Counted from the first letter of the stretch, positions 2,046-39,990 are shown. The stretch is DNA of 64,000 bases from Candidatus Hadarchaeota archaeon (GCA_964384105.1 CAYLJV010000001.1:653482-717481), one strand, 5' to 3'. Notes: generated by a model from the sequence alone, not told the origin. Translations and numbers: made by a program.

Positions 2046-3174
2046 TCTTAATTCTCTCTATTTTTTCTTCCAGCTCTTCCCTAATCTGGTCCCCTATATA
2101 TCGCCCGGACATGGCATCTACTCTCGCGACTATTGCAAGTTTGCCAGCCAATGCTCTGGCTATTTTTCCTCGTATGTCTTTAGGAGATCCTCGTATTTCC
2201 GGATATTGAAAAATTATACCGTGTTTTGGAGGTTTGGCTCCTTTTTCTTTTAGTGATCTAAAGAGTGCCTTTTCAGCGCCCAATACTTGAATCGTACTTG
2301 AGGGCATTTTGGCTAGTTTCTCCAGTCCGCCCGCTTGTGATATTAATCTTGCACCGATTGGGCCGCCCACAAGGGTCTTTATATTTGGAGCTACTTGCTC
2401 CATAAGGTCTTCGAGGTAATCGGATGTTTTGTCTCTAGCTTCTTGGAGTCTCTGAACTTTGTTGACGCAAGTTTTGATAGCTTCTATGTCTATTTCATCA
2501 AAGTCCGATCCAACCGAATTATTTGAGGCATTTTCTATTTCCACAGCTTTCTCTTCACTTATACCTGTAGCTGTAATTTTTTCTTTCGCGAAATTCTCTC
2601 TACCTCCAAATTTAGAGATTAAGACGAAGTATTCAGTATAGTCTGATACATGCCTTTCGAGTTCGGGAAAGTGGATACCGTACCACTCCCTGATTCTTTC
2701 ATATAATGCGTTGATGGTTTTGTCAAGTTCATCCATTGTGTTTATAGTTTCGATTACTATTTTGTCCTTTTCTGAGGCTTTTTCTCTAAGATCTTTTCGG
2801 ATAATTAGAATATTTACATCTCTGAAAATTTCATTTAGATTTTCGATACCTTGTTCTTTTGCTATCTCATGTATACTGCTTCTTAATTTCAGATTTGCAG
2901 GGCTTGGAATTTTGGAACGGAAAGTTGTATTTTCGAATTCTTCATTTAGTTTTGAGGCGAGTTCGTCGGACTCGATTTCAAATTCTGTATGCCCATTTTT
3001 AATTAGTTTCTTGATTAGTTCTAGATGCTCATGTGCTAATTTACCCTTTCTAATAAGCCTTAATTTTTCGGAAATCTCTCTTACATCGGGTTTGAACATC
3101 TCTGAGTCTAATATTTCTAGGTCTTCGCTTAATGCGAATATTCCGAGTATACATTCTCCAATTTGAATAGTCAT
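2035..3174 (-). CDS. nop5: C/D box RNP protein Nop5/Nop56
   Basis: REWYGIHFPEL, IQVLGAEKALF, PPKHGIIFQ, RGKIARALAGK; operon with fibrillarin. Confidence 0.95.
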   Translation of the reverse strand: MTIQIGECILGIFALSEDLEILDSEMFKPDVREISEKLRLIRKGKLAHEHLELIKKLIKNGHTEFEIESDELASKLNEEFENTTFRSKIPSPANLKLRSSIHEIAKEQGIENLNEIFRDVNILIIRKDLREKASEKDKIVIETINTMDELDKTINALYERIREWYGIHFPELERHVSDYTEYFVLISKFGGRENFAKEKITATGISEEKAVEIENASNNSVGSDFDEIDIEAIKTCVNKVQRLQEARDKTSDYLEDLMEQVAPNIKTLVGGPIGARLISQAGGLEKLAKMPSSTIQVLGAEKALFRSLKEKGAKPPKHGIIFQYPEIRGSPKDIRGKIARALAGKLAIVARVDAMSGRYIGDQIREELEEKIERIKSGR

Positions 3175-3400
3175 AAACTCCTCATTTCTTATTTTATTGG
3201 AAACTTTAATCTCTTGTGTTAAAAACTGTAGAAAAGACAGAGATCACACTTTTTAGACTTAGAGTGACAACAGTACTAAAATCAATCAACTGCTGAAGTG
3301 AATTTTCTGCATTAGGACTTAGTTAATAGTGTCTTTATTATTGATAGTTCCATCTGGATAACATTTGTTGGTTATGTTTTTCGATTAGTCGAATTCACGA

Positions 3401-4426
3401 CTATAATTTTTCAGATCGGAGGTCAATTGTATCGAACGTATCGGGGCCTGTTGATACTAAAGTAACTGGTATTTCCAATTTTTCTTCAACGTCTTCTATG
3501 AATTCTTTGGCTTCCTTTGTCAATTTTCCATATTCTTTAACGCTATCATTTCCGTCAAATAGTCTATCTACATTGGTTATTGCTATTTGAGTTGCTCCGT
3601 TTATCATGGCCGAACGTTTTGCTAACTCAAAATCAAACTCTCCGATTCTTCTTCTTCTACCAGTAACTGTGCCATGTTCTATAATTCCAAGTTCCTCTGC
3701 CCTTTCTTGGGATATTTCGGTTGGGAAAGGCCCTTCTCCAACTCTACTAATATAGGCTTTGAATATTACTATCACTTCATCTACGTTTGTTGGACCAACA
3801 CCTAGGTCTGCTGCTAGTGAACTTGCAGTAACATCCTTACTTGTTACATAGGGGTATGTACCGAAATAAAGTGAGAGACCGAATCCTTGAGAACCTTCTA
3901 TTATCACTTTTTCTTCATTTTTCAGAGCTTCATTTATTTCTCCTGGAACGTCTGTGAGATATTTTTTCAGTTCATCGATTTCTTCAGCTAGCTTAATTGA
4001 TCTATTTGCTCTTTCTGAGTTCGCAGGTCCGCATCCTGTTCCGGTTGTTCCAATTTTCTCTTCGAGATGTTCCGAACTCTTGTCTTGTTCAATATGTTTC
4101 TGCTCTATTATCGGGCATTTGTAGTCGATTCCTACTCTATCTTCAATGCCTGTTTCTTCTATCTCTTTTAAAGCGACTTCGGGATTTACGAGCACTCCTG
4201 GCCCTATCAGTGTCCGAGCTTTTTCTTGAACGAAACCACAGGAAATTTCTCTAAGCCCATATTCTCTTCCATTATACTTCACGGTATGCCCTGCGTTTGG
4301 GCCAACTCCTGCCCGTCCTATTTTTGTTGGTTCGTCTTTCAGGGCGAGATAAGAAGAGATTTTGCCTTTGCCTTCGTCGCCCCATTGACCTCCAGAAATT
4401 ATTGTACAAGGCATATTTATCCCCAC
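3401..4426 (-). CDS. purA: Adenylosuccinate synthetase, short archaeal type (start probably 4414)
   Basis: [48 protein letters not shown]. Confidence 0.97.
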
Positions 4427-28130: not shown

Positions 28131-28547
28131 TTAATCTTTTGCTTTGTTTCTGATTTTCTTTGCGATTTCAGAGATTTCTTTTTTTGGTGGATTGTTTACA
28201 ACGGCATGGATTGGTTTTCCTTGATCTCCTTCAAATCTTGGAATTATGTTAACATGTAGATGGGGAATTTCCTGTCCTGCCGATTTTCCGTCATTTATTC
28301 CCACAGTAAAAGCATTGGGTTTGATGGAATTTTCGAGAATTTTTTCCACTTTTTTTACCACAATAAATACTTCTTCGACCAGACTATCATCTAATTCGGT
28401 TAGTCTTTCCACGTGTTCTTTAGGAATTACAAGACTGTGTCCAGGGGCCCTAGGATTTATATCAAGAAAAGACATTACTCGGTCTGTTTCATATATCTTT
28501 TCGCAATCAAGTTCTCCATTTGCTATTTTACAAAAAACGCAGTCCAT
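28131..28547 (-). CDS. HIT family nucleotide hydrolase
   Basis: DCVFCKI, FLDINP..PGHSLVIPK.H, AGQEIPHLHVNIIPR (last triad His is Asn). Confidence 0.93.
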   Translation of the reverse strand: MDCVFCKIANGELDCEKIYETDRVMSFLDINPRAPGHSLVIPKEHVERLTELDDSLVEEVFIVVKKVEKILENSIKPNAFTVGINDGKSAGQEIPHLHVNIIPRFEGDQGKPIHAVVNNPPKKEISEIAKKIRNKAKD

Positions 28548-28726: not shown

Positions 28727-30049
28727 ATGTCTGATATCATAATCAAAAACGGCTTAATCGTCACTATGGATCCTGAAGGAAGAGTTACAAAGGGGTCAGT
28801 TTCTATTGAGGATGATCGAATAAAGGAGATTGGGGGTACTGGAGAAGAAGCAGATAAAGTCATCAATGCAGAGGGTAAAATAGTGATGCCGGGTCTTGTC
28901 TGCTCATATTCTCGCCCATATAGAGTATTCCTGAAGTCAATTTTACGAAATATAGAGCCGCCCACGGATTTTACACAAATTTTACAGCGTATATGGTGGC
29001 CTCTGGATGAAGTGTTATCTGATGATGATATTCATATTGGTACTTTAGTCTCTTGTTTAAAGTTCATAAAAACTGGAACCACTTTTTTTGTCGGACTTCA
29101 TTCTAGCCAGGAATCTATTGGGAAATCGCTTGATTATGTTGCTTCTGCTATCGAAAAATCAGGAATTAGGGCTCGAATTGCTTACGAATCTTCTGAAAGG
29201 CATACACATGCAGAGGGAGCGAGAGGCATGAAAGAAAACATTAGGTTTCTTGAAAGAAAGAGAAAGTCAGAGGAGTCTCTAGTTGAAGGGCTAGTGGGTT
29301 TAGGCTGCACTTTTACTACTTCCGATGAGTTGCTAAGGCACGGAGAGAGGGTGTCTAATAGATTCGATGTGCCGATGGCCCTATCCGTTTCGGAGGGCAA
29401 AGTAGATCTTTACCATAGTCTTGAGAATTATGGAAAAAGACCCGTTGAGAGACTAAGAGATTTGGGAATCTTAAACTCTAATACAGTTCTTGCTCACTGT
29501 GTGCACTTAAATGATGATGAGATTTCGTTAATTAAAAAAGCTGACTCAAAAGTCGCTCACTGTCCGATGGGCAATATGTTAAACGCTAGTGGAGTAGCAC
29601 CGATTCCGGATATGACCAAGAAGAAGGTTTTGGTCGGTATAGGAAATGATGGTTATATTTTTGATGGTTTTGAAAATATGCGCTTTTCTTGTTTAGTTCA
29701 TAAAGGGGTTTCAAGGGACCCAAGGTCGATTTCATCTATGGATGTGTTAGAAATGGCCACGATAAATGGAGCAAAGTCTTATGGTCTGGAAAAAGAAATA
29801 GGATCTATTGAACCTGGGAAAAAAGCAGATATCATAGTAATAAATCCTCCCTCTATGTTTTCCCATCTAACGCGGGAAAATATAGCAGATTTTATAGTCA
29901 ATAACGTAAGAGGTTGTGACGTGGAAACAATGATTGTTGATGGAAAGATTGTGATGAAAAACCGAAATATAAAAACCCTTAGAGAGGAAACTATAATGAA
30001 AAAATCTGTAAAAGTAACAGAAAAAATTTGGAAAAATTTAGAATTATAG
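28727..30049 (+). CDS. SsnA/MTA-SAH deaminase-like amidohydrolase homolog lacking most metal-binding His
   Basis: VMPGLVCS, GTT, LAHCVH, HCPMGN, GNDG, ATINGA, IGSIEPGKKADI; HxH replaced by YSR. Confidence 0.88.
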   Translation: MSDIIIKNGLIVTMDPEGRVTKGSVSIEDDRIKEIGGTGEEADKVINAEGKIVMPGLVCSYSRPYRVFLKSILRNIEPPTDFTQILQRIWWPLDEVLSDDDIHIGTLVSCLKFIKTGTTFFVGLHSSQESIGKSLDYVASAIEKSGIRARIAYESSERHTHAEGARGMKENIRFLERKRKSEESLVEGLVGLGCTFTTSDELLRHGERVSNRFDVPMALSVSEGKVDLYHSLENYGKRPVERLRDLGILNSNTVLAHCVHLNDDEISLIKKADSKVAHCPMGNMLNASGVAPIPDMTKKKVLVGIGNDGYIFDGFENMRFSCLVHKGVSRDPRSISSMDVLEMATINGAKSYGLEKEIGSIEPGKKADIIVINPPSMFSHLTRENIADFIVNNVRGCDVETMIVDGKIVMKNRNIKTLREETIMKKSVKVTEKIWKNLEL

Positions 30050-30063
30050 AGGTGAAATAAATA

Positions 30064-31152
30064 ATGGTTAATTTAAGTACTGAAATAGCTGGAATAGAGT
30101 TCAGAAATCCAATACTTCCTGCAGCCGGGCCTTTAACAAGAGACGGAGATTCACTTGTAGATGTAGCTAACAACGGTGCTGGCGGACTAGTTTCGAAAAC
30201 GGTAAGTGTGGAACCCGCAAAAATCCCTAGACCAAATCTTGCTAAGGTTGGAAACAGTATAGTAGATGCAGATAGCGGATCGGAAATATCTGTAGAAAAA
30301 TGGATTGAAGATGAATATCCAAAGGCGAAGAGTGTAGGACTTCCCTTAGTAGCTAGTATTGGCTATACTCCTGAAGAAATTGAGGAATTAGCTCCTAGAG
30401 TCGCTGAGGCAGGAGTTGATGCGCTAGAGATTACGAATGGAAATATTGTTAAGGACGTATCTGTTATCCCTGAATCGGTAGAGATTGCAAAAGAACAAGT
30501 GGATATCCCTGTTCTTGTAAAATTAAATCCACAGCTTTTGGAGATAGATGAGATCGCAATAGCTGCCGAAAAAGCAGGCGCTGACGGAATCGTCGCTGTA
30601 AACTCTATCGGTCCGAGTTTGGTTATCGATGTAAACACAGAGAGACCATTAATGGGTAGTGCTAATGGATACGGCTGGCTTTCAGGACCTTCGATAAAGC
30701 CTGTAGCTGTAAGATGTGTCGCAGATATAGCAAGAGCTGTTGATATACCTATTATTGGCTCTGGTGGTATCAATAGTGAGAGAGACGTTGCAGAGTTTTT
30801 AATGGCTGGCGCTTCTGCGGTCCAAATCTGTACGGCTAGTATTACTCGAGGTAAAAAGATTTTTGGCTTGATAGCGGATAACCTCAAGAGGTTTATGGAT
30901 GTAAGAGGCTACGATTCTATTGAGGATATTAGAGGTGTTGCTCTTAGGAATCTGCCCGAAGAACCTTTGAGAACTACTGCGAAACAGCCCTCTTTCTTGA
31001 GTTCAAAATGTACTGGTTGTGGACTTTGTGTAAAGCACTGTCCTTACGACGCCGTTACGATAGTCAGCGGAAAAGCTAGGATAGATTCAACCAAGTGTAC
31101 AGGATGCGGACTCTGTGTTTCAGTGTGTCCCCCGAAAGCTCTCAGATATTAA
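30064..31152 (+). CDS. Dihydroorotate/dihydropyrimidine dehydrogenase (PreA-like) homolog with C-terminal 2x[4Fe-4S] ferredoxin
   Basis: NPILPAAGP, SKTVS, VLVKLNP, GWLSGPSIKP, GSGGI, GASAVQIC; two CTGCGLCVxxCP motifs. Confidence 0.88.
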   Translation: MVNLSTEIAGIEFRNPILPAAGPLTRDGDSLVDVANNGAGGLVSKTVSVEPAKIPRPNLAKVGNSIVDADSGSEISVEKWIEDEYPKAKSVGLPLVASIGYTPEEIEELAPRVAEAGVDALEITNGNIVKDVSVIPESVEIAKEQVDIPVLVKLNPQLLEIDEIAIAAEKAGADGIVAVNSIGPSLVIDVNTERPLMGSANGYGWLSGPSIKPVAVRCVADIARAVDIPIIGSGGINSERDVAEFLMAGASAVQICTASITRGKKIFGLIADNLKRFMDVRGYDSIEDIRGVALRNLPEEPLRTTAKQPSFLSSKCTGCGLCVKHCPYDAVTIVSGKARIDSTKCTGCGLCVSVCPPKALRY

Positions 31153-31205
31153 AAACCGAAGAATTAAATTCTCTGAGAGCTAACTTATTCTTCGGTGGAT
31201 GGATT

Positions 31206-31781
31206 TTGATAATCGAAGCGATTCTAATTGCAATAATTGCTATACTAATAATCTGGATCTACTTTTCAGGTGGGGGAACTCCTAGAACTAGAGAGTTAAC
31301 TAATAAGATTGATAGGTTAGAAAAAGAGAACGAAACTTTGCGGGAAACAAATGAAGCTTTAAGATCTGGATATGGTTATTCTAGCAAAAAAGTCTCTAGG
31401 TCTTTGGATAAAATTGGGTCTATGGTAAGGGATTTAGTTTGCGTGAAAGAAGCCATAAAAGGTTCAAAATCGGCAAGGATGAGACTAGATGAGAAGTATG
31501 GAATTGAGGTCAGTAAACAGTTAGTCAAAAATATTCTTTCATCAGAGCAGACCGTAAACTTTGATTTAAGAAGAAGAGCAGCTCATGAAGTCTTAGTAGG
31601 CAGTATTGGCAGGGATATTCTGAAGGGGCTGGAGAGAGGAAAGAGCTTGGATGATTCCATATCGGATGCGGGTGTCCCACTAAGAATAGGAAGAGAAAGA
31701 GCGAGGTTGCTTAAAGAAGTAGGCTATTTGGATAACCATATGAATCTGACTAACTGGGGATACGAAGTTTTAGAAATGTAG
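31206..31781 (+). CDS. Membrane-anchored coiled-coil protein with C-terminal winged-helix-like motif
   Basis: TTG after GGTGGA; N-terminal TM, heptad segment IDRLEKENETLRETNEAL, C-terminal LLKEVGYLD...LTNWGYEVL. Confidence 0.7.
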   Translation: MIIEAILIAIIAILIIWIYFSGGGTPRTRELTNKIDRLEKENETLRETNEALRSGYGYSSKKVSRSLDKIGSMVRDLVCVKEAIKGSKSARMRLDEKYGIEVSKQLVKNILSSEQTVNFDLRRRAAHEVLVGSIGRDILKGLERGKSLDDSISDAGVPLRIGRERARLLKEVGYLDNHMNLTNWGYEVLEM

Positions 31782-31829: not shown

Positions 31830-33257
31830 CTACCAAATTCCTAGTAACTTCCACCAACCTAGTCCAACTGTAATAAACGTTATTACGCTGATAATACTCA
31901 ATACCGCGCCACCTTTTACTAAGTCTTTCACTTTAACGTATCCTGATGAATAGACTATGGCCGCACTTGGGGTAGCTATAGGAAGCATGAAGGCCATTGC
32001 GGACCCCATCGCTATTAAATAAGAGGGTAGCTGTCCGGGATAGCCAAGCTCTATTAGAGTTATCAATGCAATAGGGAGAACTACTACCGTAGCTGCGGAG
32101 TTACTCATTAAGTTTGAAAGAAGGACCACGAGAACAAGTAGCATAACTATAATCAGAAATGAGTTCTGTCCAATAAAACCTATTAGTTGTGTGGTGATAA
32201 AGGAAATCCCTTGTGTATTTCGCAAGGCCTGGCTCAAGGTTATGGCACCCCCATATAGAAAAAGCAGTCCCCATGGCATGTTTTGTTCTATATCTCTCCA
32301 GGTGATTGTTCTAGTTACTACAAGTAAAATGAGTGCACCTACTGCTACTGTAGCAAGGCCAATTTCGGTTCCAAGTACAACCCATAATACGAAGGAAAGT
32401 CCGAAGATTCCCGCAGCTTTCTTTTCCCTCTCGCTTATGCCACCCATATCCGAGACTTCCTCTTTCATTTCGGTTCTCATACGATCTACATCTACTTCTT
32501 CCCAAGGGTAAACTATCCTTAAAACGATGAAAGTTAGTATCATCAAAATTATGGCTATTGGAGCTCCCGCAATAAGCCAATCCACAAAGCTAAGAGATAC
32601 CCCTACGGTGCTTTCTAGTATTCCAATTGCAAGCACGTTACGAGCTCCACCTAAGAGTGTGCCGATGCTTCCTACAGAAGTGGCATAGGTCAATGCTAGG
32701 AAAATAGCAATTCCGAAATTATTTCTCCTGTCTACCCCTCCTGCTTTGACCATACCCATTAAAACAGGTAGAAGTAGGGCAGCAACAGCATGTGCGGGAA
32801 TGGTCATTGCCATAAATCCACCTAATATACAAACGCTGAAGATCATAGAAGATGAACTTTTACCAAATTTTCTGAGGAATAGTAGTGAAATTCGCTTGTG
32901 TAGATTTGTTTTTTGAATTGCGATTCCTAGGGAAAGAGCTCCTATTAAAAAGAAGAGAGCTGGACTACCAAAACCGGTGAAAGCATTACTAGGTTCTAAA
33001 ATTCCGAATATTGGAAGTAACATTGTTCCAAACAAAGCGGTAAGGCCAAGAGGAAAAGTTTCTGTAACCCATAGTATTGTTACGAACGCAAGTATTCCGA
33101 CTGCTCTTTGACCTTCTATTGGAAGGCCTTCAGGATTAGGGAGGAATGAAATAATCATGAGGGTTGCAAAGGCAGTAGCCAGATAGTAGACTCTTCTTAA
33201 ATACTCCGGCCTGGCGATATCCTTGCCTATTAAGTTTTCGTTCTCCCCGGTGGGCAT
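31830..33257 (-). CDS. SLC13/DASS family sodium:dicarboxylate or anion symporter
   Basis: LWVTETFP, TNLHKRI, SVGSIGTLLG..RN, SNLMSNSA, FMLPIATP. Confidence 0.9.
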   Translation of the reverse strand: MPTGENENLIGKDIARPEYLRRVYYLATAFATLMIISFLPNPEGLPIEGQRAVGILAFVTILWVTETFPLGLTALFGTMLLPIFGILEPSNAFTGFGSPALFFLIGALSLGIAIQKTNLHKRISLLFLRKFGKSSSSMIFSVCILGGFMAMTIPAHAVAALLLPVLMGMVKAGGVDRRNNFGIAIFLALTYATSVGSIGTLLGGARNVLAIGILESTVGVSLSFVDWLIAGAPIAIILMILTFIVLRIVYPWEEVDVDRMRTEMKEEVSDMGGISEREKKAAGIFGLSFVLWVVLGTEIGLATVAVGALILLVVTRTITWRDIEQNMPWGLLFLYGGAITLSQALRNTQGISFITTQLIGFIGQNSFLIIVMLLVLVVLLSNLMSNSAATVVVLPIALITLIELGYPGQLPSYLIAMGSAMAFMLPIATPSAAIVYSSGYVKVKDLVKGGAVLSIISVITFITVGLGWWKLLGIW

Positions 33258-37767: not shown

Positions 37768-39990
37768 ATGGGAAAAACATTAATAATAAGTGAGAAACCT
37801 AGCGCTGCATCTAAAATAGCCGGCGCTTTGTCTAAAAAGGAGGGTGCTCTTGAAAAGGAGCTAAATGGGGTTACTTACTATGAATTTGAAAGAGACGGGA
37901 AAAAAATAGTGGTAGTTCCGGCTCTTGGCCATCTTTTTACCTTGAAGAATAAGAAACCTATGAAGTACTATCCGATGTATGATATCGAATGGGTACCAAA
38001 ATACGAGGCTAATAATACGTCGGGGAATTCCGAAGCTTTCATAAAAGCGATAAGCGAAATCTCGAAAGAAGCTAGCGAATATATAAATGCCACAGATTTT
38101 GATCAGGAAGGCGCAGTAATCGGATACACAGTTTTAAAATTTCTCTGTGGTGATGGAGCTCCTGAGAAAGCGAAAAGAATGAAATTTTCGACATTAACAG
38201 CGGAAGAACTTGAAAATTCATATAAGAATTTACTTCCCAATTTGAATCAAAATCTCGTAGATTCGGGGATAGCCCGTCACATGTTAGATTGGTATTGGGG
38301 GATGAATCTCTCAAAGGCCCTTACTTCCTCCGTTGAAGCGGCTCATGATCGTTTTGTAAAACTGTCTGTTGGTCGAGTACAAACACCAACTCTGAAAATT
38401 TTGCTGGAAAGGGAGAAGGAAATCGAGAAGTTCGATCCGGAACCATACTGGGTTATTGAACTTTTGTTTGATTTAGATGATCAGGAAGTAAAGGCAAGGC
38501 ATAAAGAGAAAAAAATATTTGATGAAGACAGAGCGTTAGAGATAAAGAAGAAGTGTGAAGGCAAATCTGCCACGGTCTCAAATATAAAAACAAGAGAGTA
38601 TACGAATACCCCACCCACACCTTTTAATTTAAGTTCACTTCAATCCGAGGCCCATAAGCAGTTTGGTTATTCCCCAGCTAGAACTCAACAGTTAGCACAA
38701 ATTCTCTATAATGACGCATTGATTAGTTATCCCAGAACGGGTTCTAAGAAGTTGCCTAAGTCCATCGGATACAGGGAAATAATCAAGAAAATAGGTAAAA
38801 TTCATGGATATAAAAAACGAGCTGAAAAACTCTTAAAAATATCCAAATTGGAACCCAATGAGGGAAAGGCAACTGACCCGGCTCATCCAGCTATTTATCC
38901 GACGGGTGTAAAACCTGAGGGTCTAGAAGGGCCTCGAAGAAGAGTCTATGACCTGATTGTTAAGAGATTTTTAGCTACTTTTGCTGATAAGGCGGTTAAG
39001 CAGAGTATGAGAATTGATTTGGATATCGAAGGAGAACCATTCTTCCTTAGAGGTCGAAAAGTGCTTGAGCCTGGTTGGCTGGAATATTATGCACCATACG
39101 GAACTACTGACGAAATCATCCTCCCCGAAATACGCGAGGGGCAAATACTTGAACCCCAAAAATTCCTGTATCAGGAAAAGGAGACAAGTCCTCCTGCTAG
39201 ATATAATCCTTCTTCTACGGTTAAGGAAATGGAAGATCGAAATTTGGGTACCAAGGCTACAAGAGCGGGTACCGTAGAAAATTTAGCAGATAGAAATTAC
39301 ATAGAGGGTGAACGTTTCGTTGTAACTGAAATAGGGAAACAGTTGATAGAATCTTTGAACGAATATTGCCCTGAAATCGTTAGTGAGGAACTTACTGCTC
39401 ATTTTGAAAAAGAGATGGAAGAAATAGAGCAAGGTGAAAAGGATAAAGAGGAGATATTAGAAGAAGCTAAAAAGAAACTCAATGAGATTTTAGAAAACTT
39501 CAAAGAAAACGAAGAGAAAATAGGAGAACCACTTGGTGAGGCCTATAGAAAAACCAGGAGGAACCAGAAGATTATGGGTGACTGCAAACTTTGTGACGAA
39601 GGCCAACTCAAAATAATTGTTTCTCGGAGGACTGGAAAGAGATTCGCTGGCTGTACCAATTATCCAAATTGTAATAATTCTTACCCCTTACCCCAAAATG
39701 GGAAGATTATACCTCTAGACGAGTATTGCGATGAATGTGAGGAACCACGAATTAAAGTAATCCGAAAGGGGAAGAGACCATACACTATGTGCATTAACCA
39801 TACTTGTTCAACAAAAGATGATTGGGATATCGACCAATCAAAAATAGGAAAATCAACACCACCCCAAGATCAGAATATAACTCCATTAATGGAACAGTAC
39901 CAGGAAGAGACTGACAAAAAGGCTAGAGATGAAGAAGGAGATTTGACTGATGAATATAAGAAGTGGAGAAGGAACAGGTCGAAGAAATAG
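37768..39990 (+). CDS. topA: Type IA DNA topoisomerase with C-terminal zinc ribbons
   Basis: ISEKPS, GHLF, ATDFDQEG, SVGRVQTP, ISYPRT (catalytic Tyr), AHPAIYPT, LGTKATR, GCTNYPNC. Confidence 0.96.
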   Translation: MGKTLIISEKPSAASKIAGALSKKEGALEKELNGVTYYEFERDGKKIVVVPALGHLFTLKNKKPMKYYPMYDIEWVPKYEANNTSGNSEAFIKAISEISKEASEYINATDFDQEGAVIGYTVLKFLCGDGAPEKAKRMKFSTLTAEELENSYKNLLPNLNQNLVDSGIARHMLDWYWGMNLSKALTSSVEAAHDRFVKLSVGRVQTPTLKILLEREKEIEKFDPEPYWVIELLFDLDDQEVKARHKEKKIFDEDRALEIKKKCEGKSATVSNIKTREYTNTPPTPFNLSSLQSEAHKQFGYSPARTQQLAQILYNDALISYPRTGSKKLPKSIGYREIIKKIGKIHGYKKRAEKLLKISKLEPNEGKATDPAHPAIYPTGVKPEGLEGPRRRVYDLIVKRFLATFADKAVKQSMRIDLDIEGEPFFLRGRKVLEPGWLEYYAPYGTTDEIILPEIREGQILEPQKFLYQEKETSPPARYNPSSTVKEMEDRNLGTKATRAGTVENLADRNYIEGERFVVTEIGKQLIESLNEYCPEIVSEELTAHFEKEMEEIEQGEKDKEEILEEAKKKLNEILENFKENEEKIGEPLGEAYRKTRRNQKIMGDCKLCDEGQLKIIVSRRTGKRFAGCTNYPNCNNSYPLPQNGKIIPLDEYCDECEEPRIKVIRKGKRPYTMCINHTCSTKDDWDIDQSKIGKSTPPQDQNITPLMEQYQEETDKKARDEEGDLTDEYKKWRRNRSKK

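What the first reader, a model, noticed from the sequence alone, without database searches (positions are those of the whole stretch)
28727..31781. Operon of two apparent pseudoenzymes plus a membrane-anchored wHTH protein: candidate sensing system
Seen: three co-oriented genes with gaps of 14 and ~53 bp, all full-length with no frameshift. The amidohydrolase has lost its metal ligands. The PreA/PyrD-like flavoprotein has lost its catalytic loop but keeps FMN motifs and both [4Fe-4S] motifs. The third gene encodes TM + coiled coil + winged-helix-like C-terminus. Known: SsnA-like amidohydrolases and PreA-like Fe-S flavoproteins co-occur in anaerobic purine/pyrimidine catabolic clusters. Inference: parallel loss of catalytic residues with retained folds and cofactors suggests repurposing as a nucleobase/redox-sensing or scaffold complex, possibly signalling to the membrane-tethered DNA-binding protein, or as inactive partners of active paralogs. 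This is my best candidate for an undescribed system in the window.
Basis: partly seen in the sequence, partly recalled or inferred. Interest (0 to 1): 0.78.

Follow-up and report, generated by a model that had tools for sequence, protein, structure and literature searches.

The report
Catalytically stripped archaeal purine-breakdown enzyme pair
Two neighbouring archaeal genes descend from the enzyme pair that reduces and then opens purine-type rings without oxygen, but here both have lost the residues that mark that chemistry while natural selection still keeps them intact, so they probably do a different, still unknown job; the third gene is a separate neighbour.

Summary
Three co-oriented genes lie at 28727-30049 (A), 30064-31152 (B) and 31206-31781 (C). 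A is an SsnA-like amidohydrolase that has lost three of its four metal ligands. B is a PyrD-fold FMN protein with two intact [4Fe-4S] motifs that lacks its own family's two signature loops. C has a membrane helix, a coiled coil and a winged-helix-like end.

A and B descend from the SsnA/UacX-type "reduce, then hydrolyse" purine-ring module described in 2025. They are adjacent in 30 of 30 related loci. Most Hadarchaeota copies are intact and sit among purine-breakdown genes.

The window's A belongs to a single clade of 26 metal-less proteins among the 120 nearest homologues. That clade is under purifying selection (dN/dS about 0.09). For B, a near relative differs at 30 silent and 3 replacement sites among the differences listed. 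The rest of the pathway is missing from this genome.

C occurs in 59 of 66 genomes of the phylum, including six that lack A and B. A three-part sensing system is therefore not supported.

Best reading: a repurposed Fe-S flavoprotein with a non-catalytic amidohydrolase partner. Physical binding is untested. Earlier notes of this scan had already found the B family on other DNA. This is a new variant of a known kind, of moderate interest.

The parts
28727..30049 (+). Gene A: SsnA-like amidohydrolase (440 aa) without a metal site; a member of a monophyletic metal-less clade
   Evidence: The model has pLDDT 93.3 and TM 0.9 to Zn deaminases.
28907..28915 (+). Codons 61-63 (Y-S-R) at the place of the H-x-H metal motif at the end of barrel strand 1
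   Evidence: Among 120 family members H61 occurs in 106 and H63 in 97.
29384..29386 (+). Codon 220 (Ser) at the place of the strand-5 metal His. E223 of the HxxE motif is kept.
   Evidence: All 26 clade members have S or P at this position.
30064..31152 (+). Gene B: PyrD-fold FMN protein with a C-terminal 2x[4Fe-4S] domain (362 aa). It belongs to the UacX / 'DHase X1'-like family, but both family loops are lost.
30265..30285 (+). Codons 68-74, DADSGSE, in place of the family loop N-A-E-L-W-S-[DE]
   Evidence: N68 93/120, E70 105/120, W72 111/120. The same loop occurs in bacteria and Thorarchaeota. There is a weak match to NTEWSTE of E. coli YgfK.
30427..30450 (+). Codons 122-129, EITNGNIV, in place of the family loop E-L-S-T-H-Y-L-G. 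This is the position of the Cys loop of PyrD/DPD.
31009..31044 (+). First CxxCxxCxxxCP [4Fe-4S] motif (codons 316-327), intact
31096..31131 (+). Second CxxCxxCxxxCP [4Fe-4S] motif (codons 345-356), intact
31194..31199 (+). GGTGGA, a ribosome-binding-site-like stretch 6 nt before the TTG start of gene C
   Evidence: read from the sequence. Its function as a binding site is inferred.
31206..31781 (+). Gene C (191 aa from TTG): N-terminal membrane helix (codons 2-21), long coiled-coil helix (26-84), winged-helix-like domain (113-191). A phylum-wide gene, not specific to the A-B pair.

Best explanation
Genes A and B are a derived form of the 'reduce, then hydrolyse' module for N-heterocycle (purine) ring breakdown. 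In that module an Fe-S flavoprotein of the YgfK/UacX type reduces the ring and the amidohydrolase SsnA opens it.

In the window's lineage (MSBL1-like Hadarchaeota) the hydrolase lost its metal centre once, at the base of a clade. In the window's own sub-branch the flavoprotein later lost the two loops that mark the family's substrate site. The other pathway genes are absent from this genome.

Both genes are nevertheless kept by purifying selection, stay adjacent, and appear in RNA libraries of a near relative. I therefore read them as a repurposed pair. B still binds FMN and two [4Fe-4S] clusters and works as a ferredoxin-linked redox protein on a changed, unknown substrate or partner. A is a non-catalytic partner kept for structure or ligand binding. 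It would play the role that the inactive dihydroorotase-like chain plays for Pseudomonas aspartate transcarbamoylase.

Gene C is a separate, phylum-wide, membrane-anchored winged-helix protein that happens to lie downstream.

Shown: descent, the losses, their clade structure, selection, the missing pathway, and the independence of C.
Inferred: cofactor binding, an A-B complex, and the new role.
For: Descent
- SsnA models are the best NCBIfam hits for A.
- A is 30% identical to E. coli SsnA over its full length.
- A and B are adjacent in 30 of 30 related loci.
- They co-occur across the phylum: both in 46 of 66 genomes, A without B in 0, neither in 12.
- In all 3 Hadarchaeota genomes outside the window's family that were inspected, the intact pair sits beside an allantoinase/hydantoinase-like gene and ATP-grasp_5 and Succ_CoA_lig genes. 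XdhC, MobA-like, MoCF and AllH genes also occur nearby in some of them.
- The E. coli uric-acid cluster likewise holds hyuA, yqeA, yqeB (XdhC family), mocA, ygfK and ssnA.
- YgfK or UacX together with SsnA convert 2,8-dioxopurine (passages of bioRxiv 10.1101/2025.05.19.654654).

Loss in A
- Among the 120 nearest homologues, 26 form one clade with support 1.0, and all 26 lack the strand-5 His.
- This clade is sister to three intact MSBL1-type proteins.
- Twenty sites that are at least 95% conserved in 90 intact proteins are kept in under half of the clade. Several of them, including H63, D123, T156, S191, H220, H257 and D308, lie at or just after barrel-strand ends in the model.

Loss in B
- The two loops are conserved from Hadarchaeota to Anaerolineae, Chloroflexia, Thorarchaeota and a Cetobacterium. 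They are absent from the window's B.

Selection
- Two metal-less A genes (G054 versus G051) give dN/dS 0.09. Their B genes give 0.04.
- RNA-library contigs of a roughly 93-97% identical relative differ from the window's B at 30 silent and 3 replacement sites among the 33 differences listed for B.
- Between G000 and G052, A (54%) and B (61%) are as conserved as TctA (60%).

Missing pathway
- This 90%-complete genome shows no PF01315 match, no carbamate kinase, AllH, XdhC or MobA match, and no orthologous hydantoinase.

Within the genus
- A lacks its ligands in 7 of 7 genomes.
- B keeps both loops in the 3 genomes that have a PF01315 gene and has changed loops in the 4 that lack one.

Precedent
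- An inactive dihydroorotase-like chain is needed by P. aeruginosa ATCase (abstract of PMC7053772, seen in the listing).
Against: - No test of A-B binding succeeded, so the partner role rests on adjacency, co-occurrence and analogy.
- The new function is unknown.
- The window's A keeps E223, H257 and D308 and has Arg at the old metal site. The same Y/R/S pattern arose independently in P0112. Metal-free catalysis is therefore not excluded.
- Some clade members' B proteins have also lost FMN-contact lysines (K45E, K153Q). This fits poorly with a redox role common to the whole clade.
- dS is near saturation (1.4 and 1.9), so dN/dS is rough.
- One search did not list 34 further differences.
- RNA-library contigs can contain DNA and do not prove a single transcript.
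- The PF01315 correlation rests on 7 related genomes that are 65-91% complete.
- I could not compare B directly with C. difficile UacX.
Confidence: 0.5

Rival explanations
1. New enzymes rather than dead ones. The pair still catalyses a reduce-and-hydrolyse (or related) reaction on a different substrate. A would use a metal-independent mechanism built on R63, E223, H257 and D308. B would have a widened pocket from W72G, H126G and Y127N.
For: - Purifying selection is strong on both genes.
- The window's A keeps the acid/base residues E223, H257 and D308.
- Five of the 120 proteins share the exact pattern Y-R-S-E-H-H-D, one of them (P0112) by independent origin.
- Position 63 is Arg or Lys in 18 of 26 clade members.
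- The FMN and Fe-S motifs of B are intact in the window.
Against: - Across the clade the supposed catalytic residues are not held. H257 is kept in 12 of 26 and D308 in 12 of 26, and position 61 varies among H, Y, F and C.
- A shared new mechanism would fix these residues.
- No new clade-wide polar motif stands at the old site. The IG[RK]SLD, H205 and F213 features are shared with the intact sister proteins.
Confidence: 0.25
2. A and B are ligand- or redox-sensing pseudoenzymes that signal to the membrane-anchored winged-helix protein C, forming a three-gene regulatory system.
For: - The three genes are co-oriented with short gaps.
- C follows B directly in 8 genomes.
- An RNA-library contig of a near relative bridges the B-C junction (X7 record 7).
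- The C-terminal domain of C resembles winged-helix regulators.
Against: - C is present in 59 of 66 genomes, including 6 of 6 f5 genomes that have neither A nor B.
- C also follows intact A-B pairs in G009 and G010.
- In other genomes C lies 4-98 kb from the pair or on another contig. There it sits next to an HD-domain gene (3 of 5 loci) or near a proteasome beta gene (2 of 5).
- In G025 the proteasome beta gene and C are direct neighbours. In G052 an ATP-grasp_5 gene, A and B lie between them. The adjacency therefore looks positional.
Confidence: 0.1
3. Relics on the way out. The pathway was lost and A and B are drifting toward pseudogenes with no remaining function.
For: - The partner pathway genes are absent.
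- Conserved active-site positions are released.
- A evolves faster than B within the genus (43-57% versus 60-85% identity). Elsewhere in the phylum A is the more conserved of the two (82% versus 79%).
Against: - All 26 clade members listed are full length at 420-475 aa.
- No stops were found in 7 of 7 genus genomes. The one apparent split, in G053, is a run of N.
- dN/dS is 0.09 for A and 0.04 for B.
- B shows 30 silent versus 3 replacement differences to a near relative.
Confidence: 0.07

Closest known systems
YgfK-SsnA (E. coli) and UacX-SsnA (C. difficile) of the reductive uric-acid / 2,8-dioxopurine pathway (bioRxiv 10.1101/2025.05.19.654654 and 10.1101/2025.04.24.650524; passages read)
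   Same: - An SsnA-like amidohydrolase is encoded next to a PF01180-type Fe-S flavoprotein that has no FAD/NAD(P)H domain.
- Intact relatives in the same phylum sit beside hydantoinase-like, XdhC and MobA-like genes, as in the E. coli cluster. A carbamate kinase gene lies in the cluster of the same-genus genome G050.
- A is 30% identical to E. coli SsnA over its full length.
- The consensus loops of the B family align weakly with YgfK (NTEWSTE, LSTMHG).
   Different: - The window's A lacks three of the four metal ligands and scores below both SsnA cut-offs.
- The window's B lacks both family loops.
- No XDH-type, hydantoinase, carbamate kinase or other pathway gene was found in this genome.
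- Even the intact Hadarchaeota A proteins fall below the SsnA cut-offs (394-408 versus 444), so they form a sister group.
- No UacX sequence was at hand for a direct comparison.
'Dehydrogenase X1' clade of the DHODase/DHPDase superfamily (Barba et al. 2013, PMC4016543; passages read)
   Same: It is a PyrD/PreA-related clade of unknown dehydrogenases found together with hyuA, ygeW, ygeY, ssnA, xdhABC and yqeA. That matches the neighbourhood of the intact relatives.
   Different: The window's copy has lost its neighbours and its loops.
Pseudo-dihydroorotase (pDHO) subunit of Pseudomonas aeruginosa aspartate transcarbamoylase (PMC7053772; abstract seen in the listing)
   Same: It is a member of the amidohydrolase superfamily that is catalytically inactive yet retained, because the enzyme of the adjoining pathway step needs it as a subunit.
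   Different: It belongs to a different branch (dihydroorotase-like) and has a different partner (a transcarbamoylase rather than a flavoprotein). A complex is shown there and is only inferred here.
PyrD class 1B and PreA/DPD flavoproteins (PDB 1ep1, 5ksw, 1gt8)
   Same: The FMN TIM-barrel fold is shared, with conserved FMN-contact Lys and Gly-rich motifs. As in PreA/DPD, there is a C-terminal 2x[4Fe-4S] domain.
   Different: There is no catalytic Cys loop, and the loop is about 10 residues shorter. B scores below the PyrD and PreA cut-offs (208 versus 269 and 190 versus 335). The genome has a separate PyrD-like gene beside a dihydroorotase-like gene.
MarR/ArsR-type winged-helix regulators and the Rio2 N-terminal winged helix (for gene C)
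   Same: The predicted fold of residues 113-191 is similar (Z 6.6-8.2, 57-89 aligned residues, rmsd 1.5-6.6).
   Different: No sequence family matches above cut-off. C has an N-terminal membrane anchor and a roughly 60-residue coiled coil. DNA binding is not shown.

Membership tests
SsnA (NCBIfam NF005540 / TIGR03314) | Score at or above the curated whole-protein cut-off | tested here: not met
   346 bits versus cut-off 444, and 331.6 versus 455.5. Intact Hadarchaeota orthologues also fall short at 394-408 and 375-388. SsnA is nonetheless the best-scoring family.
SsnA (NCBIfam NF005540 / TIGR03314) | Mononuclear metal site of subtype III amidohydrolases: HxH (strand 1), His (strand 5), Asp (strand 8). 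The naming of the subtype is recalled, not taken from a call. | tested here: not met
   Y61, R63 and S220 replace the three His residues. D308 is kept. E. coli SsnA has H-N-H, H in HAAE, and D.
SsnA (NCBIfam NF005540 / TIGR03314) | Encoded beside a YgfK/UacX-type ring reductase | tested here: met
   (30 of 30 loci).
SsnA (NCBIfam NF005540 / TIGR03314) | Hydrolytic opening of reduced 2,8-dioxopurine | not testable with these tools
   This needs an enzyme assay.
UacX / DHase X1-type Fe-S flavoprotein | PF01180 barrel plus C-terminal 2x[4Fe-4S] domain, without a fused FAD/NAD(P)H domain | tested here: met
   The 362-aa length is shared by the family.
UacX / DHase X1-type Fe-S flavoprotein | Family loops N-[AT]-E-L-W-S and E-[LI]-S-[TS]-H-Y. 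I defined these here from 120 homologues and from bacterial and Thorarchaeota members. | tested here: not met
   The window has DADSGSE and EITNGNIV. W72 occurs in 111/120, S124 in 104/120 and T125 in 101/120.
UacX / DHase X1-type Fe-S flavoprotein | Direct similarity to the characterised C. difficile UacX | not tested
There is only an indirect link through the weak YgfK alignment (E 4e-5 for one sequence).
PyrD class 1B / PreA (DPD) | Catalytic Cys loop and a score above the curated cut-offs | tested here: not met
   loop; 208.4 versus 269; 190.4 versus 335.
Inactive structural amidohydrolase subunit (pDHO-like role) | Stable complex with the neighbouring enzyme | not tested
The job accepted failed, and the repeat got no usable answer.
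Winged-helix DNA-binding proteins (gene C) | Winged-helix fold of the C-terminal domain | tested here: inconclusive
   the listed matches are mostly winged-helix regulators or winged-helix domains, but Z is only 6.6-8.2. The tool's own note calls that range common. There are no Pfam or NCBIfam hits above cut-off.

The most novel reading that the evidence does not exclude
The metal-less SsnA-like protein and the loop-less Fe-S flavoprotein form a new kind of two-subunit redox or ligand-binding complex. It would have evolved from a purine-ring-degrading enzyme pair after the pathway was lost. One possibility is a ferredoxin-linked reductase for a new substrate. Another is a purine- or redox-state sensor whose output is not yet identified and could still include the adjacent membrane-anchored winged-helix protein in this family of genomes.
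Probability: 0.25. Interest if true: 0.7.

Novelty: new variant of a known kind. Interest (0 to 1): 0.45.

Why it matters
The oxygen-free purine-ring pathway (YgfK or UacX plus SsnA) was only solved in 2025, and its archaeal relatives are untested. This locus shows a natural series within one archaeal phylum:
- intact pairs inside purine-breakdown clusters;
- pairs whose hydrolase has lost its metal site while the reductase keeps its loops;
- pairs, as in this window, where both have changed and the pathway is gone.

All stages are still under purifying selection.

The series gives three things. It offers a test of whether SsnA-type proteins have a second, non-catalytic role beside their reductase. 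It provides ready-made natural mutants for mapping which residues of both enzymes matter. It also warns against annotation: these genes would be called 'amidohydrolase' and 'dihydroorotate dehydrogenase' and counted as nucleobase metabolism in metabolic reconstructions of MSBL1/Hadarchaeota genomes, which is probably wrong here.

Tried and rejected
The job accepted was unfinished and failed. The repeat got no usable answer. There is no result either way.

- A new P-loop in A. The clade-wide G-K-S at 132-134 looked like a Walker A motif. The intact sister proteins have I-G-R-S-L-D at the same place, so it is a lineage feature. I dropped the idea.

- Foldseek search of the whole model of C. It gave no match at E <= 0.001. 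The long helix dominates the model. The VIA-align wide search gave the winged-helix matches instead.

- A split B gene in G053 / L094 as a sign of decay. The translation shows runs of X, meaning N in the contig, so this is not a frameshift.

- An XDH-type gene as an obligate companion of the pair. PF01315 occurs in only 30 of 66 genomes against 54 of 66 for B. For example genus g5 has 0 of 6 against 5 of 6, and g9 has 5 of 14 against 14 of 14. There is no tight link phylum-wide.

- Bacterial promoter and terminator scan. It found 15 promoter-like sites against 10.9 expected and one terminator-like site upstream of A. This is uninformative for an archaeon.

- Earlier notes of this scan by place returned nothing.

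- Literature. One search for Hadarchaeota + purine + amidohydrolase listed no paper holding 'Hadarchaeota' among the 12 shown. One search for pseudoenzyme + amidohydrolase + 'metal ligands' listed nothing on SsnA-like pseudoenzymes. I saw no description of this metal-less clade, but two searches do not show that none exists.

- Protein atlas for C. The best cluster is an unnamed Hadarchaeota cluster scoring 0.86. It adds no functional lead.

- Pairwise dN/dS for the window's own A and B against G050, G052 and G054. Synonymous sites are saturated and no value could be given.


Full report
**What is there**

The stretch holds three co-oriented ORFs with no internal stops.
- Gene A runs 28727-30049 (440 aa).
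- Gene B runs 30064-31152 (362 aa), 14 nt downstream of A.
- Gene C has a longest form starting with GTG at 31095, which overlaps B.

An in-frame TTG at 31206 is preceded by GGTGGA at 31194-31199. Homologues of C begin to align at residues 24-36 of the long form. I therefore take 31206 as the start.

Upstream lies a divergent HIT-family gene (28131-28547, minus strand). Downstream lies a convergent Na/sulfate-symporter-type gene (31830-33257, minus strand). The rest of the window encodes archaeal housekeeping proteins: proteasome beta, RadA, Rad50/Mre11-like, Hel308-like, CCA-adding enzyme and RPA. The nearest homologues of A, B and C are named by their sources as candidate division MSBL1 or Hadarchaeota.

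**Gene A**

Family and fold:
- A matches Pfam Amidohydro_1 (E 5.5e-45).
- Its best NCBIfam models are the two SsnA models, but below their cut-offs (346 versus 444 and 331.6 versus 455.5).
- It is 30% identical to E. coli SsnA over its whole length.
- Its AlphaFold model is confident (mean pLDDT 93.3, pTM 0.93).
- The model superposes on Zn-dependent deaminases and AtzA with TM about 0.9.

Metal site:
- I aligned A to solved Zn enzymes and to the 119 other best homologues.
- Y61 and R63 stand at the HxH motif and S220 stands at the strand-5 His. E223, H257 and D308 are kept.
- Three of the four metal ligands are therefore gone.
- The four amidohydrolase paralogues in the same genome are 32-38% identical to A and all keep HxH.

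**Gene B**

- B matches DHO_dh (E 1.2e-38) plus two Fer4 domains.
- It scores below the PyrD and PreA cut-offs.
- Both CxxCxxCxxxCP motifs are intact. Seven of these eight Cys positions are invariant in the 52-sequence alignment and the eighth (C319) is at least 90% conserved.
- K45, K153, N180 and K212 are kept. I recall these as the FMN or substrate contacts of dihydroorotate dehydrogenases.
- The Cys loop of PyrD/DPD is missing.

**What the pair descends from**

Distribution in the phylum, which holds 66 genomes including the window's own:
- B occurs in 54 of 66 genomes at E <= 1e-60.
- A occurs in 46 of 66 at E <= 1e-95.
- No genome has A without B, and 12 have neither.
- Eight have B only at these thresholds. 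In one of these (G026) A is cut off by the contig end. The other seven have divergent B proteins (42-49% identity).
- In all 30 loci fetched around B, an A homologue lies directly upstream on the same strand. In three of them it is truncated by the end of the locus.

Neighbourhood of intact pairs. I inspected three genomes outside the window's family (G025, G043, G035).
- In all three, the intact pair is flanked by a divergently transcribed allantoinase/hydantoinase-like cyclic amidohydrolase.
- ATP-grasp_5 and Succ_CoA_lig genes also flank it in all three.
- In some, XdhC, MobA-like and MoCF genes and an AllH-domain gene are present too.
- The E. coli cluster that holds ygfK and ssnA contains hyuA, yqeA (carbamate kinase-like), yqeB (XdhC family) and mocA.

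Literature:
- I read passages of two 2025 preprints. They report that YgfK, or in C. difficile the PF01180-type protein UacX, reduces 2,8-dioxopurine. SsnA then opens the six-membered ring and HyuA opens the hydantoin ring.
- Barba et al. 2013 (passages) had already grouped such PyrD-like proteins as 'dehydrogenase X1', found with hyuA, ssnA, ygeW, ygeY, xdhABC and yqeA.
- Earlier notes of this scan on other genomes name the same family 'cysteine-less UacX-type purine-ring reductase' with an S-T-H-Y loop. I had reached the UacX link independently, and I checked the loop myself.

**The family loops of B**

- Across the 120 best homologues the family has N-A-E-L-W-S-[DE] at positions 68-74 and E-L-S-T-H-Y-L-G at 122-129.
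- Frequencies are N68 93/120, E70 105/120, W72 111/120, S124 104/120, T125 101/120 and H126 83/120.
- The same two loops are present in Anaerolineae, Chloroflexia, Thorarchaeota and a Cetobacterium MAG. The Cetobacterium locus also holds an SsnA-like gene upstream.
- A profile of the family aligns colinearly but weakly with the N-terminal part of E. coli YgfK (E 4e-5 against that one sequence). It places NTEWSTE and LSTMHG at these loops.
- I infer that these loops line the substrate site.
- The window's B reads DADSGSE and EITNGNIV. It is the only one of 120 with Asp at 68, one of 9 without W72, and one of 2 each with N125 or G126.
The whole family lacks the PyrD Cys loop, and this copy has also lost the family's own loops.

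**How the losses are distributed**

Protein tree of A. A FastTree of the 120 A proteins was rooted with the 38% paralogue.
- All proteins lacking the strand-5 His, apart from three sporadic cases, fall in one clade of 26 tips with support 1.0 on a long stem.
- This clade is sister to three intact MSBL1-type proteins.
- Within the clade the former ligand positions vary:
  - position 61 is H, Y, F or C;
  - position 63 is R in 14, H in 5, K in 4, and Q, M or N in the remaining three;
  - position 220 is S in 17 and P in 9;
  - position 257 is H in 12 of 26;
  - position 308 is D in 12 of 26.
- Twenty positions that are at least 95% conserved in 90 intact proteins are kept in fewer than half of the clade. 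Sixty-six positions are conserved in both groups.
- In the model, several released positions lie at or just after the ends of barrel strands. These include H63, D123, T156, S191, H220, H257 and D308. That is where amidohydrolase active sites lie, which is recalled knowledge of the fold.
- Four proteins outside the clade show independent changes (P0112, P0120, P0040, P0084). P0112 carries the same Y/R/S triple as the window.

Genome table of the window's genus:
- A lacks its ligands in 7 of 7 genomes.
- B keeps both consensus loops in G050, G051 and G054. These are the three genomes with a PF01315 (xanthine-dehydrogenase-type) gene.
- B has altered loops in G000, G049, G052 and G053, the four without such a gene.
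- These seven genomes are related and 65-91% complete, so this is a pattern and not a test.

The order of events suggested is metal loss in A first, and change of B later where the pathway disappeared.

**The pathway is gone from this genome**

The genome is 1.62 Mb in 12 contigs and 90.2% complete.
- It has no PF01315 match.
- tblastn with proteins from relatives' clusters found no carbamate kinase, AllH-domain, XdhC or MobA-like gene.
- For the hydantoinase-like protein it found only a 35-40% match. That match lies beside the PyrD-like paralogue, and I read it as dihydroorotase.
- Relatives keep parts of the cluster. G050 has carbamate kinase, ATP-grasp_5 and the hydantoinase-like gene beside the pair. 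G052 keeps ATP-grasp_5.
- In the window a HIT gene occupies that place.

**The genes are not decaying**

- All 26 clade members are 420-475 aa long.
- No stops were reported in any genus genome. The apparent split of B in G053 is a run of N.
- Nei-Gojobori estimates between two metal-less genomes (G054 and G051) are below. Synonymous sites are near saturation, so the ratios are rough.

| Gene | Codons | dN | dS | dN/dS |
|---|---|---|---|---|
| A | 451 | 0.12 | 1.40 | 0.09 |
| B | 240 | 0.07 | 1.93 | 0.04 |

- All comparisons involving the window's own genes were saturated.
- Between G000 and G052, A (54%) and B (61%) are conserved about as much as the neighbouring TctA (60%). They fall between an OB-fold protein (36%) and topoisomerase IA (80%).
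- Within the genus, A is less conserved than B (43-57% versus 60-85% over 10 pairs). In 231 pairs from the rest of the phylum A is the more conserved (mean 82% versus 79%). Constraint on A is therefore relaxed but far from lost.

Evidence from RNA libraries:
- Contigs of four metatranscriptome runs from three salt-lake studies match the locus at about 93-97% identity.
- They cover the 3' end of A, the A-B junction (two contigs), most of B, the B-C junction (one contig) and part of C.
- Of the 40 differences that the tool listed, B has 30 silent and 3 replacement, C has 4 silent, and A has 2 silent and 1 replacement. Another 34 differences were not shown.
- One contig spans the altered E-I-T-N-G-N loop, and no listed difference falls within it.
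- These are assembled contigs from RNA libraries. They do not prove transcription, strand or a single transcript.

**Gene C**

Structure:
- No Pfam or NCBIfam family passes its cut-off. The weak DivIC/FtsB-type hits reflect the membrane helix plus coiled coil.
- An alignment of 30 orthologues shows three conserved features: a hydrophobic N-terminal helix followed by F/Y-S-G-G-G, a heptad-rich segment ending in N-E-A-L-R, and a conserved C-terminal domain.
- The model has mean pLDDT 80.4, rising above 90 over residues 130-190.
- The VIA-align matches span residues 113-191. Most are MarR, ArsR/SmtB, HxlR, PadR or TubR-type proteins, Sso10a, or winged-helix domains such as the Rio2 N-terminus. 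Z is 6.6-8.2, which the tool itself calls a middling range.
- Basic residues follow the membrane helix, so the C-terminal part should face the cytoplasm. This is my inference from the positive-inside rule.

Distribution:
- C occurs in 59 of 66 genomes. These include all six of family f5, which has neither B nor A.
- C directly follows B only in G000, G050, G052, G053, G054, G056, G009 and G010. The last two have fully intact A and B.
- In other genomes C is 4-98 kb from the pair or on another contig.
- In five such loci C is convergent with an HD-domain gene in three and lies near a proteasome beta gene in two.
- In G025 the proteasome beta gene and C are direct neighbours. In G052 the order is proteasome beta, ATP-grasp_5, A, B, C. 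In the window the proteasome beta gene lies 0.9 kb upstream of A.

The simplest reading is that the remnant of the purine cluster lies between two old neighbours. The adjacency of C looks positional, although co-transcription in this family of genomes is possible.

**Most likely working**

Shown:
- The pair descends from an SsnA/UacX-type module.
- The metal site of A and the family loops of B are lost.
- The loss in A defines a clade.
- Both genes are under purifying selection.
- The pathway is absent from this genome.
- C is independent of the pair.

Inferred:
- B still carries FMN and two clusters and acts as a ferredoxin-linked redox protein with a changed substrate or partner.
- A is retained as a non-catalytic partner for stability, assembly or ligand holding.

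The precedent is the inactive dihydroorotase-like chain that P. aeruginosa aspartate transcarbamoylase needs (abstract of PMC7053772). Repeated independent losses of ligands in this family, unbroken adjacency and strict co-occurrence fit a second, non-catalytic role for A.

I could not test binding because the complex job never returned a result. I give this reading 0.5.

Rivals:
- New catalysis without metal on a new substrate: 0.25. It is favoured by the retained E223, H257 and D308 and by the recurrent Y/R/S pattern. It is disfavoured by the variability of these residues across the clade.
- Relics in decay: 0.07.

**Novelty and verdict**

- The family and its pathway are known. Sources are the 2013 prediction, the 2025 biochemistry and earlier notes of this scan on other DNA.
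- What I did not find described, in two literature searches, is a monophyletic, selected, metal-less clade of SsnA-like proteins paired with reductases that lose their site step by step.
- That makes this a new variant of a known kind.
- It is of moderate interest as a natural experiment on enzyme-pair repurposing and as an annotation caveat for MSBL1/Hadarchaeota metabolism.
- It is not the undescribed signalling system proposed.
- Supplements of Barba et al. 2013, which hold the X1 alignment, could not be opened. They may bear on the family assignment of B.

Noticed in passing
L073:10036-11604 (G025) and L074:4905-6701 (G043): A eukaryotic-type DNA topoisomerase IB gene (Pfam Topoisom_I_N, Topoisom_I and Topo_C_assoc, E down to 2.8e-70) lies near the intact A-B pair in two Hadarchaeota genomes. 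It is directly downstream in G025 and two genes away in G043. The window itself has a type IA topoisomerase at 37768-39990.
   Followed up: no
protein P0112 (homologue list): An SsnA-like protein nested among intact relatives, sister to the intact P0122, carries the same Y-x-R and Ser replacements as the window's protein. This is an independent origin of the same pattern. P0120, P0040 and P0084 show single independent losses.
   Followed up: partly
L094 (= G053:C29), about 2480-3738: B appears as two overlapping pieces with different identity to the window (58% for the N-terminal half, 75% for the C-terminal half). The translation shows runs of X, meaning N in the contig. This is an assembly gap or masked stretch, possibly a chimeric join, and not a frameshift.
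   Followed up: partly
window 28131-28547 (minus strand): A HIT-family gene lies where the same-genus genome G052 has an ATP-grasp_5 gene between the proteasome beta gene and gene A. This marks local gene replacement during erosion of the cluster.
   Followed up: no
genomes G038 and G039: These two genomes carry 15 and 11 matches to the xanthine-dehydrogenase-type hammerhead domain PF01315. That is far more than other members of the phylum (0-5) and marks a large expansion of Mo-hydroxylase-type genes.
   Followed up: no
proteins P0154 and P0156; L016 (G049), whose B shows the same loops and K-to-E/Q changes: Some B proteins of the same clade have also lost the Lys residues aligned with FMN-contact lysines (K45E, K153Q), yet they keep all eight cluster cysteines. 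In those lineages only the Fe-S domain looks fully conserved.
   Followed up: partly
L166:3687-4937, L167:3752-5104, L168:1663-3036: An HD plus HD_assoc_2 (dGTPase-like) gene is convergent with gene C in three of five genomes where C is not next to the A-B pair. It may be a conserved neighbour of C.
   Followed up: no
source names (locus tags AKJ64_00485, AKJ64_00490, AKJ64_03500): In one MSBL1 single-cell assembly, B and C carry adjacent locus tags on one contig. A metal-less A carries a distant locus tag and is listed with a different longest-contig length. The assembly may hold two pairs or may be mixed.
   Followed up: no
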